Positions 4,365 through 34,826 of a DNA stretch of 38,655 nucleotides are shown here, one piece after another. The DNA comes from Desulfobacteraceae bacterium (GTDB taxonomy: Bacteria; Desulfobacterota; Syntrophobacteria; BM002), in NCBI GenBank assembly GCA_002899795.1, contig PPDG01000259.1, forward strand, positions 1 to 38,655. The letters run 5' to 3'. Positions within the stretch are counted from its first letter, which is position 1; every line of letters starts with the position of its first letter. A model generated the notes under the pieces. It searched no databases and was not told where the DNA came from. It saw only the letters and a list, made by a program, of their open reading frames with translations. The position numbers were made by a program, and so were the translations under genes.

Positions 4365-4634
4365 ATGTCGATGTGGCTTTACGATGAAATGAATGAGATG
4401 GAGGATTACCAGAACTACCAGAAAGAAGTCCGGCTCCTTGAGAGAGAGTACCTTGAAATCCGGATCCTTCTTCGTGATGCCGAGGCAGATTATAGAAAAG
4501 AACCTGAGAGCGAGTATCTCGAAGCAAAGGTGAAGTATTTGCAAAAAAGGCTGAAGGGTTTGGAGGGCCTAGCAGCCCGGCTTGCCGCTGACCACCCGCT
4601 GGAAATATCCCTTTTTGCTCCGCCCCACGGCTAA
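4365..4634 (+). CDS. hypothetical small acidic/basic coiled-coil protein (89 aa)
   Basis: AGGAG SD 7 nt upstream of the ATG. Charged heptad-like sequence (EYLEIRILLRDAEADYRKEPESEYLEAKVKYLQKRLKGLE). I recognise no family. Confidence 0.45.
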   Translation: MSMWLYDEMNEMEDYQNYQKEVRLLEREYLEIRILLRDAEADYRKEPESEYLEAKVKYLQKRLKGLEGLAARLAADHPLEISLFAPPHG

Positions 4635-4673
4635 CCCCTACTCTTATCAATCTGGGAAGACAAAAGGTGTGGG

Positions 4674-4870
4674 TAACCCTAACGTTGCATACCTACTCCG
4701 AGGAAAAACGCGCCAGAGTGCGCCAGATGTGGCTGCGCACAGGCTCGGTCAGGACGAAGCATACTTCACCGTACGTTGAGATCCTGGCCGAGGCGAGCAC
4801 AGCCGCAGATGGGGTACTATAGCGCGAGCCTAGCGATTTTAGCCGGTGTGGGTATGCAACGTTAGGGTTA
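4674..4870 (+). repeat. ~193-nt long-hairpin element D1 (MITE-like or structured RNA)
   Basis: Perfect 20-bp terminal inverted repeats TAACCCTAACGTTGCATACC / GGTATGCAACGTTAGGGTTA. It aligns end to end with 6838-7029. Inner stems include CTCGGTCAGGA/TCCTGGCCGAG and GTGCGC-N11-GCGCAC. The wobble pairs are G.T only when read on the + strand. Confidence 0.8.
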
Positions 4871-4873
4871 AGC

Positions 4874-5053
4874 TCAGTGGAGGTCGGTATCAAAATCATG
4901 ACTCACGCAATCCCATACACCATCAGGATCACACTCTTTACAATGGTAGTGCTCCGCATATATGAGGTGACTTTGGTAGGATACGGCTTCCTCTAAACGG
5001 ACCCGGGCTTCGCAATGGGCACAGTCAACATATCGAATGTTATCTTTATTCAT
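4874..5053 (-). CDS. hypothetical 59-aa CxxC...CxxC zinc-ribbon-like protein
   Basis: Internal ATG of the 131-aa track ORF, chosen because the upstream part overlaps the neighbouring gene. Sequence is MNKDNIRYVDCAHCEARV...HYHCKECDP. No clear SD. Confidence 0.35.
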   Translation of the reverse strand: MNKDNIRYVDCAHCEARVRLEEAVSYQSHLIYAEHYHCKECDPDGVWDCVSHDFDTDLH

Positions 5054-5084
5054 TCTGTGGGGACCATGAGGATTGAGAGGCGGC

Positions 5085-5315
5085 TCATTCTTTCGGTTCC
5101 TTAGGTTTGTGCATGGGCAGCCCATAAAGGGTATCAATGTAATATTCAAAATTCTCGGGACCTGCCTCTTCCACTTCTTTGCGGAATTTTTTGCAGATCT
5201 CCAATCCTTTCTCCTGGGCGCCTTCGGGAAAACCTTCCTCGTCGGACAAATACCGCTTCTCAATCTCATCTAATTTATTCATGAACTCTTCATAGGTGAT
5301 TTCCTCTATCGCCAT
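5085..5315 (-). CDS. hypothetical 76-aa acidic protein
   Basis: ORF with a GGGGG SD-like tract 5 nt upstream of the ATG. Co-directional and closely spaced with its neighbours. No family recognised. Confidence 0.45.
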   Translation of the reverse strand: MAIEEITYEEFMNKLDEIEKRYLSDEEGFPEGAQEKGLEICKKFRKEVEEAGPENFEYYIDTLYGLPMHKPKEPKE

Positions 5316-5351
5316 ATTCGCCCCCTAAAGTAATGAGCTGAATCAACCGGA

Positions 5352-5543
5352 TTATTCAAATGTAACCTCGACTTCGCTGAGGGCTTTTCTGGCCTCGGCA
5401 ATCAAATCATAAAAAGCGTCCGATTGATAAGTATCGAAACCGCCGCATCCCATGTCACCGGCTTTGTCAAAAACATGCTCTTTATCAATGTAGGTTATCA
5501 GATCTCTTGCGGCCTCAAAGAGGGTCAAATACTCATCCTTCAT
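5352..5543 (-). CDS. hypothetical 63-aa protein
   Basis: Internal ATG at 5543 preceded by a strong GGAGGAGAGGAG SD. It overlaps the stop of the upstream MBL/TPR gene by 11 nt, which suggests translational coupling. Confidence 0.5.
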   Translation of the reverse strand: MKDEYLTLFEAARDLITYIDKEHVFDKAGDMGCGGFDTYQSDAFYDLIAEARKALSEVEVTFE

Positions 5544-6819
5544 TTGTCTCCTCTCCTCCGGGTGTCTTATCATCCTTCTTAGGTTCTTGTTCTTGTTTGT
5601 CAATCTCAGTCTTGAATCTTTCCATAAACTCCGTCTTGAAGGCTTCGATCTCCATAGCCTCGTCATATTTGCCCATAAAGTACAGGGCCATACCCTTGAA
5701 TACCTGGGCTTCCTTGATCTCAGGGTTTATGGCCAGAGCGTCATCGAAGTATTTTATACTCTCATCATATTTTTGCAGCCCCAACAAAGCGTGGCCTTTG
5801 GCTGCAAGGGCGTGAACATCATCGCCTTTCTGCGCCAGAATCTGATCCAAAATCTCAATAGCCTCTTCACACCTGCCCATGTCGTTCAGGGCAAAGGCCT
5901 TCAACTGTGAGGCTGATAAATTTTCCGGTCTGAGGGCCAGCTCCTTGTCGCAGCAATAAACAACCTCTTCCAAAAGCCCCTTTTCAGCCAATACCGCGGC
6001 TCCCTCCATCCAGGTTGTTTTGGAGTCCGGCTCGACCTCCATGAGCTTCATCATCACGCCCTCGTAGGTCTCCTCCACGCTGCGTCTGCCGGTGGCCGCC
6101 ACGGGAACACCGTGGCCGGGGAGTATATTTTCAATGTCTTTTTGCATCAATTGCTTGAGCCCGTACAAGTAATGCTCCAGCCTTCCTCCGGCGGTTTTGT
6201 CAGCATCCCCAATAGAGTGCGGTATTACAGTGTCCCCGGTAATGGCGGTTCTTGTTGGCCCGTGATACAAACATATGCCGTCAATGGTATGGCCGGGAGT
6301 GTGAATCACTTCCCATTCAAAGCCGCTCAGTTCAAGGGTTTCCCCGCCCTTTACTTGGGTCAGGGAGAATCCTTGACTTTCGAGTATTTTCTTAAACTCC
6401 TGGGGACCTCCTTCATGGTTGATAATCTCGATCTCTTTACTTTCATAGATGGGGGGGTATCTCAACAGTTCGAATACGCCCATGCAGTGGTCACGGTGCC
6501 CGTGAGTGACCACCACCTTTTTGATGTCCAGAGGATTGAACCCTAATTTTTCAAGCTCAGTAAAAACCGTATAATCATTTCCCGGATCGACGATGGTCAG
6601 GTAGTCACCTGCAAGCACATAGACATTGCTGGATTCTCCATAGCCGATAAGAAACTTGCTCTTTGCAAAGACAGGATCTGATATCTTCATAACCTCTGCG
6701 ATAGACAGCCAGCCCGGGTGATCCGGTTCTAACTCGGCCGGGAGGGCAACCCCCTCTTCAAGGGGATCAAACTCCTTTGGGAACTCAAACTTCTCACCTT
6801 CTTTCTTTTCCTTTGTCAT
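5533..6819 (-). CDS. MBL-fold metallo-hydrolase fused to C-terminal TPR repeats
   Basis: HxHxDH motif (VVTHGHRDHC), a downstream HTPGHT, and a C-terminal TPR-like region (ALNDMGRCEEAIEILDQIL..., KYDESIKYFDDALAINP..., MGKYDEAME). I chose ATG 6819 with AGGGAG 5 nt upstream over the track's GTG 6825. Confidence 0.8.
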   Translation of the reverse strand: MTKEKKEGEKFEFPKEFDPLEEGVALPAELEPDHPGWLSIAEVMKISDPVFAKSKFLIGYGESSNVYVLAGDYLTIVDPGNDYTVFTELEKLGFNPLDIKKVVVTHGHRDHCMGVFELLRYPPIYESKEIEIINHEGGPQEFKKILESQGFSLTQVKGGETLELSGFEWEVIHTPGHTIDGICLYHGPTRTAITGDTVIPHSIGDADKTAGGRLEHYLYGLKQLMQKDIENILPGHGVPVAATGRRSVEETYEGVMMKLMEVEPDSKTTWMEGAAVLAEKGLLEEVVYCCDKELALRPENLSASQLKAFALNDMGRCEEAIEILDQILAQKGDDVHALAAKGHALLGLQKYDESIKYFDDALAINPEIKEAQVFKGMALYFMGKYDEAMEIEAFKTEFMERFKTEIDKQEQEPKKDDKTPGGEETNEG

Positions 6820-6837
6820 GTTCACTCCCTTCGATTT

Positions 6838-7029
6838 ACCCTAATGTTGCATACCTACGTCGAGGAAAAACGCGCAAGAGTGCGTCAGATGTGGCTGCGC
6901 ACAGACTTGGACAGGTCGAGGCGTACTTGACCGTACGTCGAGTCCTGTCCGAGACGAGCACAGCCGCAGATGGCGTGCTATCAAGCGAGCGCAGCGGTTT
7001 TTACCGGTGTAGGTATGCAACATTAGGGT
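6838..7029 (+). repeat. ~192-nt long-hairpin element D2
   Basis: Perfect 19-bp terminal inverted repeats ACCCTAATGTTGCATACCT / AGGTATGCAACATTAGGGT. About 85% identical to D1 by hand alignment, with compensatory differences in three helices. It starts 18 nt upstream of the MBL/TPR start codon. Confidence 0.8.
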
Positions 7030-7140
7030 TTACTTTATTTCATAGAATTAGACCGCCAATAATAGACTAATCACCAGGGATTCTCAAGCTTTGATTGTGC
7101 AAAAGGCAAAGGCATGGGCCGGCTCCTAACTAGGATCCCA

Positions 7141-7440
7141 TAAGTCATTACACTTCACTGGCACTCATGGTCATTTGGCCACCGAAAGTGGCCGTCACTA
7201 CGCTTCGCTGTCAATATGCCTCCGGCGTCATTTATGGTCACTAGGTCACTAAGCTGTCACTCGTGGTTAACTGTCATTGTGGAGTTAGAACAACTTAATG
7301 ACGGCCGTGAGGCCAAACTAGGGACCAGCTTGCGGGACTGAGCGGAGCGCAGCGAGCGCGAAGAAATGACGGGCGCAGCCCTAATGACAACGAAGCGCAC
7401 ATGCGCGAAGTGTAATGACTTGTAATTGCCTAGTGTTTAG
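7141..7440 (+). repeat. TAATGAC-mosaic long palindromic repeat, full copy (family C)
   Basis: The left arm is rich in GTCATT/GTCAC words and the right arm in AATGAC/GTGAC words (GTCATTACACTTC... pairs with ...GAAGTGTAATGAC). It is collinear with 18027-18255, including the shared tail GTAATGACTTG..TGCCTAGTGTTTAG. Confidence 0.85.
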
Positions 7441-7461
7441 CAGATAAGCAGGCGAAAGACC

Positions 7462-7503
7462 AAAAAAACCCCCTCCCCTGGTAAACCATTGCAGGAGAGG
7501 GGG
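7462..7503 (-). terminator. intrinsic terminator of the CoA-transferase operon
   Basis: On the - strand: CCCCCTCTCCT-loop-AGGGGAGGGGG followed by TTTTTTT, about 135 nt downstream of the last gene of the operon. Additional GC hairpins lie at 7521-7546 and 7584-7611. Confidence 0.65.
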
Positions 7504-7636
7504 ATGAAAACTGAGTGACGGCGGGCACAGAGGCCCGCCTTTTTTACGGCAGGCAGAAACGCCTGCCCTACTCTACTGGACGACCCTCTCCCCCGCGAGC
7601 AGGGGAGAGGGTATTGATGTTATGGGTTTGTGGTGG

Positions 7637-8059
7637 CTACTCGATGTAGTCCAGAGTGTAATCCAGCTTCATCTTGTCATCAGGCCACCAGTTCTTGCTC
7701 TGCACTTCTTTACCGGGGGCGACGTCTTTGCCGTCAATCTTCTCAAGATTCATCTCGAAGAACTTAAATGCCGTGACCTTGTATTTGGTGATAAAGTCAG
7801 ACGGCAGCAAGACGACCCGGCCGGTCTCCTTGGCACACTCCCACTCAAACGCTTCATTGGGAGCTGATTCTTCCGCACCGGTTATGCCGGAGTAGATCTT
7901 GAGCAGCTTGCCGGAGACCTTCATTCCCGGCTTCATGTCAAATTCCTCGAAAAGCGCGTCGGGTATGTGCCACCAACAGGCTCTCATGTTGGCGGCTGCA
8001 TATGCTTTTACGAGCATGGGATCGAAGCCGCAGACTCCCACTCGACATTTTTCAGGCAT
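7637..8059 (-). CDS. hypothetical 140-aa protein (operon gene 6)
   Basis: AAGGAGG SD 6 nt upstream of the ATG, which lies 12 nt after the previous stop. Four Cys and a WW/WWP-rich sequence. No family recognised. Confidence 0.6.
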   Translation of the reverse strand: MPEKCRVGVCGFDPMLVKAYAAANMRACWWHIPDALFEEFDMKPGMKVSGKLLKIYSGITGAEESAPNEAFEWECAKETGRVVLLPSDFITKYKVTAFKFFEMNLEKIDGKDVAPGKEVQSKNWWPDDKMKLDYTLDYIE

Positions 8060-12856: not shown

Positions 12857-12929
12857 CGCGGCTGGAAAGCCGCTCCCACAGAACCAACATCTATCCTCTT
12901 TAAACTGTGGGAGTGGCTTTCCAGCCACG
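12857..12929. repeat. REP doublet (BIME-like), GTGG type
   Basis: 12857-12881 is CGCGGCTGGAAAGCCGCTCCCACAG and 12905-12929 is CTGTGGGAGTGGCTTTCCAGCCACG. They lie head to head with a 23-nt spacer. The two arms differ by a compensatory stem change (GCGGCT/AGCCGC versus GTGGCT/AGCCAC). Confidence 0.85.
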
Positions 12930-13172: not shown

Positions 13173-13409
13173 ATTCAACAGTTTCCGGATGGACATTAAG
13201 CTATACCGCTTCTTGACAATGCTCTGAAAGGTGTGCCAACATCCGTGAGAGAAACAGCTGGCAGCCAGTGTCCATCCGACGGGAGTCAGCTGGAGTCATC
13301 ACATTTCGGATTGGAGATTTCGGATTTCGGATTGAAAATATAGAAACGAAGCTCAAAAACTATATAAGAATTCCGCAATCCGCATTCCGCATTCGAGAGG
13401 AGGCGCATC

Positions 13410-13826
13410 ATGCTTACCCACAGGACCCAGGTGCGTGTTCGTTTTGGTGACACTGATCCGTATGGCATTGTGTATTTTGTCAGCTATTTTCGCTACTGCC
13501 ATCGAGGTATAGAAGAGTTCCTGCGAAACCTCGGCCTGGCTCCCGAAAATACCTTTCGCAACCGAGAAGAGAAATTTGGCTTACCCATCGTGGCCGCCGA
13601 TTGCCGCTTTTTGATTCCGGCACGTTACGGTGAACTGCTCGAGCTGGAGACCTCGGTAAAGGAGATCAAAGAAAAGGCCATCGTCTTTCAGTTTCGCTTT
13701 TACCGACCGCCGGAAACTGGGCTGCTAGCGGAAGGCACTGCCACCATTGTAGCCATAGACCATACCTGGAAGGCGAGACCGTTGCCGGAGGTTGTGGCGG
13801 AGAAGCTGCGCTCAGCGCCAGAATAA
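13410..13826 (+). CDS. 4HBT/YbgC-type hot-dog-fold acyl-CoA thioesterase
   Basis: 138 aa with a GAGGAGG SD. The N-terminal signature VRVRFGDTDPYGIVYFVSYFRYCHRGIEEFL is typical of 4-hydroxybenzoyl-CoA thioesterase-like proteins. Confidence 0.8.
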   Translation: MLTHRTQVRVRFGDTDPYGIVYFVSYFRYCHRGIEEFLRNLGLAPENTFRNREEKFGLPIVAADCRFLIPARYGELLELETSVKEIKEKAIVFQFRFYRPPETGLLAEGTATIVAIDHTWKARPLPEVVAEKLRSAPE

Positions 13827-13857: not shown

Positions 13858-14446
13858 CGCGGCTGGAAAGCCGCTCCCACAGACAACATGACGATGTAAT
13901 ATGACCTGTGGGAGCGGCTTTCCAGCCGCGATCCCAAAATACCAATGGTTATGGAACACAGAAAAGGAACGCACCATCTGCGTAAAGGTCGCGTTTCCGA
14001 AATAGGCCATTACTATTTACTCACAGCGACCACTCACGACAAAATTCCTGTATTTACCAACCCCGAAGCTGCAAGAATAGTTCTTTCCAGTTTGCAGTCG
14101 CTTGAAGAGCAGGGACGGATTTGTCTTGAAGCTGCGGTAGTCATGCCTGATCATCTTCATTTCGTGGCTGGGTTATCTGATGGAAATTTGAGTGTGCTAA
14201 TGCAGAGTCTAAAAGGCTATAGTGCTCGCAAAATAAACGAGTTGCTCGGCCGGAAAGGACCACTGTGGCAGCCTCAATATCACGACCATGCGATAAGAAA
14301 GGATGAGGTTCTTGAGGAAGTTACTCTTTATTGCTTGCACAATCCAGTGAGAGCTGGTTTAGTTCAGGATTTCCGTGACTATCCCTATTGGTATTGCCGT
14401 TGGGAAGTGTGAAGATTGTATCGCGGCTGGAAAGCCGCTCCCACAG
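13858..14446 (+). mobile_element. REPtron: RAYT gene flanked by cognate REPs
   Basis: A REP doublet at 13858-13930 (both arms GCGGCT type, 23-nt spacer) lies upstream, and a single REP at 14422-14446 lies 10 nt after the RAYT stop. Confidence 0.8.
13945..14412 (+). CDS. REP-associated tyrosine transposase (RAYT, IS200/IS605 Y1 HUH family)
   Basis: 155 aa. HUH motif in VVMPDHLHFV and a catalytic Tyr region YCLHNPVRAGLV. Flanked by REPs. Confidence 0.85.
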   Translation: MVMEHRKGTHHLRKGRVSEIGHYYLLTATTHDKIPVFTNPEAARIVLSSLQSLEEQGRICLEAAVVMPDHLHFVAGLSDGNLSVLMQSLKGYSARKINELLGRKGPLWQPQYHDHAIRKDEVLEEVTLYCLHNPVRAGLVQDFRDYPYWYCRWEV

Positions 14447-18026: not shown

Positions 18027-18255
18027 TAAGTCATTACGCCTTGCTGTGACTCATGGTCATTTGGCCACGGAACGTGGCCGTCACTACGCTCCGCTGTCAT
18101 TATGCCTGCGGCGTCATTTATAGTTAACTGTAATTGTGGCGTTGAAACAACTTAATGACGGCCGTAAGGCCTCATGACGGGCGCAGCCCTACTGACAACG
18201 AAGCGCACATGCGCGAAGTGTAATGACTTGTGGGTGCCTAGTCCCTAGTGTTTAG
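18027..18255 (+). repeat. TAATGAC-mosaic long palindromic repeat (family C), copy collinear with 7141-7440
   Basis: TAAGTCATTACGCC...CATGGTCATTTGGCCACGGAACGTGGCCGTCACTACGCTCCGCTGTCATT...AATGACGGCCGTAAGGCC...GACGGGCGCAGCCCTACTGACAACGAAGCGCACATGCGCGAAGTGTAATGACTTG. It ends 3 nt before the nth stop codon. Confidence 0.85.
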
Positions 18256-26824: not shown

Positions 26825-27008
26825 TGGTCAGTACACTGTGCTGTCACTCATGGTCATTAAGCCACTAAAGTGGCTGTCACTAGGCCTGGCGGCCGTCAGT
26901 TGGGCTGCGCCCGTCATTAGGCCTTATGGCCGTCATTGAGTCATTATGTCTTAACAATAAATGACCATTAATGACAGCGAGGCGTAATGACGGCTTTAGC
27001 CAAATGAC
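26825..27008. repeat. TAATGAC-mosaic palindromic repeat (family C) between livF and the first PaaK-like gene
   Basis: ...CTGTCACTCATGGTCATTAAGCCACTAAAGTGGCTGTCACTAGGCC...GGGCTGCGCCCGTCATTAGGCCTTATGGCCGTCATTGAGTCATTATGTCTTAACAATAAATGACCATTAATGACAGCGAGGCGTAATGACGGC... Confidence 0.85.
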
Positions 27009-34671: not shown

Positions 34672-34826
34672 GTCATTACGCTCCGCGCCTTAGCGCTTCG
34701 CTGTCATAAGGGCTGCGCCCGTCATTGAGTCATTAAGTCTCAACAATAAATGACCATTAATGACAGCGCAGCGTAGTGACGGCCACCTTCCGTGGCCTAA
34801 TGACCCAATGACTAACGACTAATGAC
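34672..34826. repeat. TAATGAC-mosaic palindromic repeat (family C) between lpdA and lipB
   Basis: GTCATTACGCTCCGCGCC...GCTGTCATAAGGGCTGCGCCCGTCATTGAGTCATTAAGTCTCAACAATAAATGACCATTAATGACAGCGCAGCGTAGTGACGGCCACCTTCCGTGGCCTAATGAC.... It runs up to the lipB ATG. Confidence 0.85.

What the first reader, a model, noticed from the sequence alone, without database searches (positions are those of the whole stretch)
4674..7029. Two ~193-nt covarying long-hairpin elements in direct orientation that precisely bracket a four-gene cassette
**The two copies**
- D1 (4674-4870) and D2 (6838-7029) align end to end, at roughly 85% identity by my hand alignment with one 1-nt indel.
- Each has perfect 19-20-bp terminal inverted repeats, and the whole element is an imperfect palindrome.

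**Compensatory differences between copies**
- Terminal stem: AACG/CGTT in D1 becomes AATG/CATT in D2.
- Next pairs: TAC/GTG (T.G) becomes TAC/GTA.
- Inner stem: CTCGGTCAGGA/TCCTGGCCGAG becomes CTTGGACAGG/CCTGTCCGAG, with one T.G to A-T change and one C-G to T.G change.
- Local hairpin: GTGCGC-N11-GCGCAC becomes GTGCGT-N11-GCGCAC.

**Strand**
- Every non-Watson-Crick pair is G.T on the + strand and would be A.C on the - strand. This suggests the selected fold is that of the + strand, as RNA or as single-stranded DNA.

**Placement**
- D1 ends 3 nt from the stop codon of the last cassette gene and starts 40 nt after the stop of the + strand ORF 4365-4634.
- D2 starts 18 nt upstream of the ATG of the MBL/TPR gene, with only the SD in between.
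- Flanking dinucleotides (TA/TA for D1, TT/TT for D2) could be 2-bp target duplications.

**Possible interpretations**
- A MITE pair forming a composite mobile unit.
- Cis-antisense structured RNAs controlling both ends of the cassette.
- A recombination-site system.
- I do not recognise the sequence as any named RNA family.
Basis: seen in the sequence. Interest (0 to 1): 0.7.

Follow-up and report, generated by a model that had tools for sequence, protein, structure and literature searches.

The report
Hairpin-forming MITE copies flanking a conserved operon
The two ~192-bp hairpin repeats are separate insertions of a previously undescribed small mobile element (a MITE) common in uncultured Syntrophobacterales; the four genes between them are an ordinary conserved operon, not a mobile cassette.

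Summary
D1 (4676-4868) and D2 (6838-7029) are direct copies, about 84-88% identical. Each is a ~192-nt imperfect palindrome with perfect 20-21-bp termini and a very stable fold.

They are not a cassette-specific pair. The same element occurs at more than 180 loci in Syntrophobacterales/Desulfobacterota MAGs and sediment metagenomes. It is always intergenic and carries a 2-bp duplication inside a T-WW-A target. Close relatives have the whole gene block with empty D1 and D2 sites. D1 and D2 belong to different subfamilies, and each has its own duplication. So these are two independent MITE insertions. D1 lies between two convergent stop codons. D2 lies between a conserved promoter-like motif and the Shine-Dalgarno sequence of a conserved MBL/TPR operon.

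No transposase partner, Rfam match or literature match was found.

Two features go beyond a routine MITE:
- Pair changes favour G·U over A·C on the + strand, on a strand-neutral pair list and with a control for mutation bias.
- At diverged orthologous sites the element is more conserved than its flanks.

What causes these two features (RNA, single-stranded DNA, or conversion between copies) is unresolved.

The parts
4676..4868 (+). D1, a full-length copy (193 nt) of the dispersed hairpin element, of the D1-type subfamily
   Evidence: nhmmer E 7.5e-61. The closest copies are L173 at 99.5% (same species, same site) and L003 at 93%.
4674..4675 (.). Left copy of D1's 2-bp target duplication (TA); the right copy is at 4869-4870
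   Evidence: family statistics.
4869..4870 (.). Right copy of D1's 2-bp target duplication (TA)
6838..7029 (+). D2, a full-length copy (192 nt), of the D2-type subfamily
   Evidence: E 1.2e-64. It is 100% identical in L059 and 97.9% in L036 at the same site.
6836..6837 (.). Left copy of D2's 2-bp target duplication (TT, in the context T-TT-[D2]-TT-A); the right copy is at 7030-7031
7030..7031 (.). Right copy of D2's 2-bp target duplication (TT)
5533..6819 (-). Metallo-beta-lactamase-fold plus TPR protein (428 aa), first gene of the conserved operon. It is not part of the mobile element.
   Evidence: Pfam; 1075 homologs at E<=1e-30; conserved synteny.
5352..5543 (-). 63-aa gene of the operon, with no Pfam match
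   Evidence: orthologues called in L059-L064.
5085..5315 (-). 76-aa gene of the operon, with no Pfam match
4874..5053 (-). 59-aa CxxC...CxxC gene, last gene of the operon (its start could lie further upstream, up to 5095). Its stop codon is 3 nt from D1's flanking TA.
4365..4634 (+). Convergent 89-aa gene, conserved in relatives. D1 lies between its stop codon and the operon's stop codon.
7059..7087 (-). Promoter-like site TTGAGA-17-TATTAT, conserved in both filled and empty loci. It places D2 inside the operon's 5' UTR.
   Evidence: sequence block conserved in L036, L059, L060, L064. This is a consensus match plus conservation, not a mapped transcription start.

Best explanation
D1 and D2 are two independent insertions of one family of non-autonomous transposable elements (MITEs). 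The family is about 192 bp long, has 21-26-bp terminal inverted repeats and is palindromic over its whole length. It is abundant in uncultured Syntrophobacterales.

**Shown**
- The family is dispersed and intergenic.
- It leaves a 2-bp duplication inside a weakly palindromic T-WW-A target.
- It has empty sites in close relatives.
- It encodes nothing: copy lengths differ by non-multiples of 3.

**Inferred**
- Copies are cut and pasted by a transposase supplied in trans that makes a 2-bp staggered cut at the target. That enzyme was not found.

**Where the two copies sit**
- D1 landed in the 62-nt spacer between two convergent genes.
- D2 landed between the promoter and the ribosome-binding site of a conserved MBL/TPR operon. 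The operon mRNA should therefore carry the - strand version of the hairpin in its 5' UTR.
- The 'bracketing' arises because such elements survive only between genes.

**Why the hairpin covaries**
- Propagating lineages, and apparently resident copies too, keep the + strand fold. Whether the selected molecule is RNA or single-stranded DNA cannot be decided here.
For: **Dispersal**
- 58 loci in about 12 species-representative MAGs.
- 118 copies with both ends, most often 192 nt long.

**Insertion footprint (83 distinct sites)**
- T at -3 in 71 sites and A at +3 in 73.
- The adjacent 2 bp are identical on both sides in 45 sites, against 17.4 +/- 3.5 in shuffles (maximum 30).

**Location**
- 1 of 83 sites overlaps a called gene.

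**Empty sites**
- L060-L063 lack D1; L060 and L064 lack D2.
- The gap closes to nearly the same length once D2 and one TT are removed.

**The cassette is a conserved operon**
- The MBL/TPR gene has 1075 homologs.
- Gene order is the same from the CoA-transferases to the HDAC gene in L059-L064.

**Independent insertions**
- D1 and D2 are 84% identical to each other, but 93-99.5% and 94-98% identical to copies elsewhere.
- Each has its own duplication.

**Hairpin conservation**
- 96.8% standard pairs; 12 pairs changed on both sides.
- Covariation score 0.182, against 0.123 +/- 0.004 in shuffles and at most 0.041 when slid.

**Other**
- No Rfam match, even at E<=1.
- The literature definition of a prokaryotic MITE is met.
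Against: **No autonomous partner**
- No inverted terminal pair is more than 260 nt apart in the 120 metagenome loci, and none in L001-L058 bounds a transposase gene.
- No transposase sits next to solo termini.
- No multi-copy transposase-like ORF was found in about 1 Mb of loci.
- Mobilisation by a DDE enzyme is therefore inferred from the footprint only.

**Features a purely selfish, neutrally decaying MITE does not predict**
- A strand-specific excess of G·U over A·C changes.
- Elements more conserved than their flanks at 5 of 5 diverged orthologous sites.
- D2 versus L036 is 97.9% identical, against 75% at neighbouring third codon positions.

**Duplication**
- The two flanking bases match in only about half of the sites.
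Confidence: 0.85

Rival explanations
1. Exapted structured RNA. The elements arrived as MITEs, but resident copies now act in cis as RNA hairpins (processing, stability or termination signals). Here they would act at both ends of the MBL/TPR operon, and they are kept by selection.
For: **Strand-specific preservation of pairing**
- Changes from Watson-Crick pairs to G·U against A·C are 135:75 on terminal and 47:12 on internal branches, on a strand-neutral pair list.
- The same transition classes in unpaired columns show no bias: 78:107 and 45:37.
- Differences between orthologous copies are 39 G·U against 13 A·C.

**Conservation**
- The element is more conserved than its flanks at 5 of 5 diverged sites.
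- D2 and L036 differ at 4 of 192 positions, with the identity step exactly at the element ends.

**Placement and precedent**
- D2 sits in a 5' UTR just upstream of the Shine-Dalgarno sequence.
- Correia and ERIC elements have documented RNase III and RNase E effects.
Against: - The favoured + strand is not preferentially the transcribed strand. There are 23 antisense against 11 sense sites, and D2 itself is antisense to its operon.
- The G·U excess is present in all orientation classes: 159:74 in antisense copies.
- No promoter for the + strand is evident.
- Close relatives do without D1 and D2.
- Orthologous copies in nearly identical flanks swap whole internal modules. This suggests that conversion between copies could mimic constraint.
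Confidence: 0.2
2. Composite mobile unit. D1 and D2 act together as the ends of a transposon that carries the four genes as cargo.
For: - The two copies are in direct orientation about 2.2 kb apart and enclose exactly four genes.
- MITE pairs can mobilise intervening DNA, as the MITE reviews note for resistance genes.
Against: - The four genes sit in the same conserved synteny in relatives that lack one or both elements.
- Each element has its own 2-bp duplication, with no shared outer duplication.
- The copies are from different subfamilies.
- The MBL/TPR gene tracks the host lineage, with 1075 homologs at graded identity.
Confidence: 0.03
3. Single-strand (HUH/Y1) mobilisation. The palindromic elements are moved as + strand DNA hairpins by a Y1 transposase such as the RAYT encoded 7 kb away. 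That would explain the strand asymmetry.
For: - The window encodes a Y1_Tnp protein.
- Y1 enzymes act on hairpins of one DNA strand (established for IS200/IS605 and RAYTs; own knowledge, and for RAYT/REP).
- G·T is tolerated in DNA hairpins too, so the asymmetry fits.
Against: - The RAYT is flanked by its own unrelated 26-nt REP hairpins.
- It does not co-occur with D copies in the loci.
- IS200/IS605-type transposition leaves no terminal inverted repeats and no target duplication (own knowledge). This family has both.
Confidence: 0.05
4. Site-specific recombination or inversion sites for the segment between them.
For: Two similar sites flank a gene block.
Against: - The copies are direct, not inverted, and only 84% identical.
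- No recombinase gene is nearby.
- Hundreds of solitary copies exist elsewhere.
- The segment's orientation is the same in all relatives.
Confidence: 0.02

Closest known systems
Chunjie MITE of Geobacter uraniireducens Rf4 (Chen et al. 2008, as summarised in PMC3184786 and PMC10969869)
   Same: - The host was classed as a deltaproteobacterium.
- Size is 178-235 bp, against 188-214 bp here.
- Terminal inverted repeats are 21 bp.
- RNA folds are about -98 to -130 kcal/mol, against -90 to -133 here.
- Both have many intergenic copies plus partial copies, and both insert into or next to operons.
   Different: - Chunjie has 9-bp direct repeats and is A+T-rich.
- This family has a 2-bp duplication in a TWWA target (readable as 4-bp TNNA) and is about 55% G+C.
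- That implies a different transposase family.
- Terminal sequences could not be compared because the original paper is not held.
Correia elements (Neisseria) and ERIC/IRU elements (enterobacteria)
   Same: - Both are 100-200-bp imperfect palindromes with terminal inverted repeats.
- They are intergenic and co-transcribed with neighbouring genes.
- They fold as long RNA hairpins that are cleaved by RNase III or change mRNA stability.
- This is the best model for what D2 may do in the 5' UTR.
   Different: - There is no sequence relationship.
- The phylum is different.
- No RNA-level effect has been demonstrated here.
- Correia duplicates TA (own knowledge).
REP/BIME elements with RAYT (TnpA_REP)
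   Same: - Both are palindromic, intergenic, multi-copy repeats.
- This same window holds a genuine REP/RAYT system.
   Different: - REPs are 20-40 nt, lack terminal inverted repeats and target duplications, and cluster around a Y1 transposase gene.
- The D family is 192 nt, has both features, and is unrelated in sequence to the window's REPs.
Rfam structured-RNA families
   Same: It is a long covarying hairpin in intergenic DNA.
   Different: There is no match for D1 or D2 at the gathering threshold or at E<=1 among 4227 families.

Membership tests
Prokaryotic MITE | Small size (50-800 bp) and no coding capacity | tested here: met
   - Copies are 188-214 nt long.
- Copy lengths of 188, 192, 193, 194, 197 and 198 nt differ by non-multiples of 3, so no conserved reading frame is possible.
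Prokaryotic MITE | Terminal inverted repeats of at least 10-15 bp | tested here: met
   The termini are 20-21 bp and perfect in D1 and D2, and are conserved across 44 copies.
Prokaryotic MITE | Flanking target-site duplication (2-10 bp) | tested here: met
   - The 2-bp repeat matches in 45 of 83 sites, against 17.4 +/- 3.5 in shuffles.
- It lies in a T-WW-A context.
Prokaryotic MITE | Many dispersed copies, mainly intergenic, with filled and empty sites among relatives | tested here: met
   - More than 180 loci.
- 1 of 83 sites overlaps a called gene.
- Empty D1 and D2 sites in L060-L064.
Prokaryotic MITE | A related autonomous IS with the same termini that supplies the transposase | tested here: inconclusive
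   - None was found in 185 loci or in the window.
- Whole genomes could not be searched with degenerate termini.
Composite transposon | Cargo moves with the two flanking elements, is absent from relatives at this site, and has a single duplication at the outer ends | tested here: not met
   - The cargo is present in conserved synteny without the elements.
- Each element has its own duplication.
REP/RAYT system | 20-40-nt hairpins with a GT[AG]G head, clustered around and flanking a Y1 transposase gene, with no target duplication | tested here: not met
   - The D family is 192 nt with TIRs and a TSD.
- The window's RAYT is flanked by unrelated REPs.
IS200/IS605-derived palindromic elements | Subterminal hairpins, no terminal inverted repeats, no target duplication, and insertion 3' of a fixed tetra- or pentanucleotide | tested here: not met
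   - TIRs and a symmetric duplication are present.
- The family's defining features are from own knowledge.
Chunjie MITE family | 9-bp direct repeats and Chunjie terminal sequence | tested here: not met
   - The duplication here is 2 bp (readable as 4), not 9.
- The terminal sequence is not testable because the paper is not held.
Any Rfam RNA family | Covariance-model score at or above the family's gathering threshold | tested here: not met
   There is no hit on D1 or D2.

The most novel reading that the evidence does not exclude
The family is not just a passive palindromic MITE. Its ~90-bp + strand hairpin would be a functional single-stranded molecule, either an element-encoded structured RNA or a single-stranded DNA transposition intermediate. 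It would be under purifying selection both in the propagating lineage and in resident copies. That would account for three things: the excess of G·U over A·C changes, conservation above that of neighbouring coding sequence, and termini that co-vary at both ends.
Probability: 0.2. Interest if true: 0.6.

Novelty: new member of a known kind. Interest (0 to 1): 0.38.

Why it matters
**Annotation**
- The result removes a false lead, a 'mobile cassette', from a conserved operon.
- It defines a repeat family that breaks MAG assemblies in a poorly known syntrophic lineage. Many copies lie at contig ends.
- That is useful for annotation and binning.

**Biology**
- The family offers a clean natural data set: more than 100 copies, orthologous filled and empty sites, and two orientations.
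- It could be used to ask whether long MITE hairpins are selected as single-stranded molecules.
- It could also show how a 192-nt hairpin dropped between a promoter and a ribosome-binding site is tolerated or used.

Tried and rejected
- **Solo termini as ends of a larger IS.** The interiors are unrelated to one another and the neighbours are housekeeping genes. L006 and L025 are one orthologous remnant.
- **Long-range inverted terminal pairs.** I searched for pairs more than 260 nt apart in the 120 metagenome loci and found none.
- **Multi-copy ORF clustering across about 1 Mb of loci.** It returned only syntenic orthologues.
- **Plasmid collection.** A BLASTN search with D2 gave no match.
- **Viral contigs.** There was one 22-nt terminal match only.
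- **Literature.** Full-text searches for the terminal sequences and for MITEs in Syntrophobacter or Deltaproteobacteria returned nothing.
- **The RAYT as mobiliser.** I rejected this because it has its own REPs and does not co-occur with D copies.
- **Strand asymmetry measured on a + strand-derived pair list.** I rejected this as biased. The - strand-derived list gave the opposite picture. I replaced both with a strand-neutral palindrome alignment.
- **3-bp and offset duplication models.** These showed no excess over chance.
- **A sigma-70 or sigma-54 promoter inside the consensus.** Inspection by eye found nothing convincing.
- **The Chunjie paper.** It could not be opened.
Full report
**1. 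The observation**

The window holds exactly two copies of the repeat, at 4676-4868 (D1) and 6838-7029 (D2), both on the + strand.
- Ungapped identity is 88% and 84% in two blocks separated by a 1-nt indel.
- Each copy has perfect 20-21-bp inverted termini.
- Each folds into a single long rod. The RNA MFE is -117.8 and -113.8 kcal/mol for the + strand (z about -12), against -98.7 and -95.9 kcal/mol for the - strand.
- No Rfam family matches, either at the gathering thresholds over the whole window or at E<=1 over 4600-7700.

**2. It is a dispersed family**

- A 21-nt terminal motif shared by all four ends (about one chance hit expected) found 58 loci. They lie in about a dozen species-representative MAGs, all labelled Syntrophobacterales, Syntrophobacteria, Desulfobacterota or Deltaproteobacteria.
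- BLAST and end-refinement gave 118 copies with both ends. The commonest length is 192 nt and the range is 188-214 nt. There are also internally deleted derivatives of 40-130 nt and truncated remnants.
- There are at least two or three subfamilies.
- There are also modular variants in which an arm segment is replaced by a local GC hairpin, TCCCGCC-N4-GGCGGGA.

**3. Insertion footprint**

Counts are on 83 distinct sites, with orthologous insertions merged.
- The base at -3 is T in 71 sites and the base at +3 is A in 73.
- The two bases next to the element are identical on both sides in 45 sites. Shuffles give 17.4 +/- 3.5, with a maximum of 30.
- The duplicated contexts are TTTA (15), TTAA (9), TAAA (6), TATA (1) and TGAA (1). 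The extended target is weakly palindromic.
- The pattern can be read in two ways: a 2-bp duplication in a T-WW-A target, or a 4-bp TNNA duplication if the outermost A and T are assigned to the target. The A/T pair is invariant in the 44 aligned copies, against 86-88% for T(-3) and A(+3). I therefore prefer the 2-bp reading.
- D1 (TA/TA) and D2 (TT/TT) each have their own duplication.
- A staggered-cut footprint of this kind is what DDE-type transposases leave. That is an inference from established transposition chemistry, not something shown here.

**4. Where copies sit**

- Copies are intergenic: 1 of 83 sites overlaps a called gene by more than 40 nt (using a crude codon-usage gene caller of my own).
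- Relative to both neighbours, 23 sites are antisense and 11 sense (p = 0.06). Ten lie between divergent genes and 2 between convergent genes (p = 0.04).
- D1 is one of the two convergent cases.

**5. The 'cassette' is a conserved operon**

- The MBL-fold/TPR protein (5533-6819, - strand) has 1075 homologs at E<=1e-30, at 70-98% identity.
- In five relatives the gene order is the same: two CoA-transferases, four small genes, MBL/TPR, three small genes, a convergent 89-aa gene, formyltransferase, nitroreductase and HDAC.
- L060-L063 are 88-90% identical in nucleotides to the window and lack D1. Their spacer between the two stop codons is 62 nt.
- L060 and L064 lack D2. Removing D2 and one TT from the window restores a spacer of almost the same length.
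- L059 (97% nucleotide identity) has an identical D2, and L173 (98%) has D1 at 99.5%.
- D1 and D2 are 84% identical to each other. D1 is 93-95% identical, and D2 about 94%, to non-orthologous copies in other genomes.
- Together with the separate duplications, this shows two independent insertions. It rules out a composite transposon.

**6. What D2 interrupts**

- A - strand promoter-like site, TTGAGA-17-TATTAT (7087 to 7059), lies just upstream of D2.
- Its sequence block is conserved in both filled and empty loci.
- If it is the operon promoter, the mRNA starts near 7052. Its 5' UTR then contains the - strand version of D2, ending 7 nt before the AAGGGAG Shine-Dalgarno sequence. The transcription start is inferred, not mapped.
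- The 371 nt immediately upstream (7090-7460) are absent from L059 and L060. They belong to a second, unrelated repeat family.
- This promoter region has therefore taken at least two insertions.

**7. Structure and strand**

On 44 aligned copies, the 57-pair consensus has these properties:

| Measure | Observed | Shuffled | Slid by 1-3 columns |
|---|---|---|---|
| Standard pairs | 96.8% | 93.6% | 29-45% |
| Pairs changed on both sides | 12 | 7.3 | 3-12 |
| Covariation score | 0.182 | 0.123 +/- 0.004 | at most 0.041 |

- The + strand is the more stable strand in 105 of 109 unique copies, by 14.7 kcal/mol on average.
- A pair list derived from folding one strand is biased towards that strand. 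The - strand fold shares only 22 pairs with the + strand fold and gives the opposite picture.
- I therefore defined 88 pairs neutrally. I aligned the consensus to its own reverse complement with plain match/mismatch scoring, and counted parsimony events on a UPGMA tree.

| Changes from a Watson-Crick pair | To G·U | To A·C | p |
|---|---|---|---|
| Terminal branches | 135 | 75 | 4e-5 |
| Internal branches | 47 | 12 | 5e-6 |

- The same two transition classes in columns left unpaired by the 57-pair structure show no such bias: 78 against 107, and 45 against 37. Fisher tests against the paired-column counts from that structure (108:64 and 41:10) give p = 1e-4 and 0.003.
- The excess is present in every orientation class: sense 79:21, antisense 159:74, divergent 61:25. 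It is only marginally stronger in sense copies.
- Host read-through transcripts are therefore not the main cause.

**8. Conservation in place**

- At the five independent sites where flanks have diverged to 70-93%, the element is always more conserved than its flanks.
- D2 and its L036 counterpart share 7 derived states relative to their subfamily consensus, so they are one insertion by descent. They differ at 4 of 192 positions. The adjacent coding sequence is 86% identical (75% at third codon positions) and the short non-coding flanks are 89-90% identical. The identity step falls at the element ends.
- Differences between orthologous copies favour G·U over A·C by 39 to 13 (p = 4e-4), or 28 to 12 without the two least certain pairs.
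- Against simple constraint, closer relatives have empty D2 sites.
- Also against it, some orthologous copies in 97-99.7% identical flanks differ by whole modules. That indicates replacement or conversion between copies.
- I cannot separate selection in place, conversion from a conserved pool, and lateral exchange of alleles.

**9. The partner**

No autonomous element was found.
- No inverted terminal pair lies more than 260 nt apart in the 120 metagenome loci.
- No transposase sits next to solo termini.
- No multi-copy transposase-like ORF appears in about 1 Mb of loci.
- Nothing was found in plasmids or, meaningfully, in viral contigs.
- The window's only transposase-family gene is a Y1/HUH protein at 13945-14412. 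It is a textbook RAYT, flanked by inverted 26-nt REP hairpins that are unrelated to D1 and D2. There are 11 such REPs in the window. It does not co-occur with D copies.
- From memory, 2-4-bp duplications occur in the IS630 family and in some IS5 subgroups, and 4-5-bp duplications with CC termini occur in IS1380. These are leads, not tests.

**10. Comparison and verdict**

- The family meets the literature definition of a prokaryotic MITE in size, termini, duplication, lack of coding capacity, intergenic dispersal and stable hairpin.
- The closest named analogue is Chunjie of Geobacter uraniireducens: 178-235 bp, 21-bp TIRs and folds of -98 to -130 kcal/mol. Chunjie makes 9-bp repeats, so a different transposase is implied.
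- Functionally, Correia and ERIC elements are the best model for what a co-transcribed copy may do.
- I found no prior description of this sequence.
- It is a new member of a known kind.
- The cassette idea is refuted.
- The strand-specific hairpin conservation is a real, moderately interesting residue, and its cause is open.

Noticed in passing
window 13945-14412 (+); REPs at 12858, 12905, 13859, 13906, 14423, 16780, 16827, 22560, 23786, 35562, 35598: - A 155-aa Y1/HUH transposase-like gene (Pfam Y1_Tnp, E 3e-9) is flanked by inverted 26-nt hairpin repeats (TCGCGGCTGGAAAGCCGCTCCCACAG).
- There are 11 such repeats, singly or as inverted doublets, across the window.
- This is a typical RAYT/REP system and is unrelated to D1 and D2.
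   Followed up: partly
window 7090-7460; partial copies at 18027-18242, 26827-26885, 34672-34805; also L061-L063, L051, L151: - A 371-nt segment sits directly upstream of the operon's -35 box and is absent from the closest relatives (L059, L060).
- It has 28-nt inverted arms (7129-7156 / 7407-7434).
- It carries about 9 direct GTCA(Y)T motifs followed by about 4 inverted AATGAC motifs.
- It is a second, modular dispersed repeat family of unknown nature.
   Followed up: partly
window 6838-7029 versus L036 1807-1998: - The same insertion by descent (7 shared derived states) is 97.9% identical in a genome whose adjacent coding sequence is 86% identical (75% at third codon positions).
- Closer relatives have an empty site.
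- Constraint, conversion or lateral exchange has not been resolved.
   Followed up: partly
L010 3453-3650, L050 2179-2380, L058 5326-5517, L137 3373-3564 (one orthologous site): - Copies at one site have flanks 94-99.7% identical.
- Yet they differ by whole internal modules: a GC hairpin TCCCGCC-N4-GGCGGGA in the left arm, the right arm or both, plus a 4-nt deletion.
- This suggests replacement or gene conversion between family members.
   Followed up: no
family consensus positions 51-52/132-133, 61/123, 41/143, 82/103 (D2: about 6888-6889 with 6969-6970): - Some non-Watson-Crick oppositions are conserved in nearly all of 109 copies.
- They are a tandem G·A/A·G inside direct AGAU/AGAU segments, a C·A (105 of 109), a G·A (100 of 109) and an A·A (104 of 109).
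- They could be inherited quirks or recognition features.
   Followed up: no
L032 about 5797-5841; L053 904-978; L038 4628-4726; L012 1838-1941; L040 1233-1349: These are miniature derivatives of 45-120 nt that keep both termini but have lost most of the interior. Many full copies lie at contig ends, so the family probably breaks assemblies.
   Followed up: no
window 13291-13395: Direct repeats of GGATTTCGGATT face inverted AATCCGCATTCCGCATTC just upstream of the ORF at 13410-13826. This may be an operator-like or repeat structure.
   Followed up: no
window 4874-5543: The three small genes downstream of MBL/TPR (63, 76 and 59 aa, the last with CxxC...CxxC) have no Pfam match. They are nevertheless conserved in order across all the relatives examined.
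   Followed up: no
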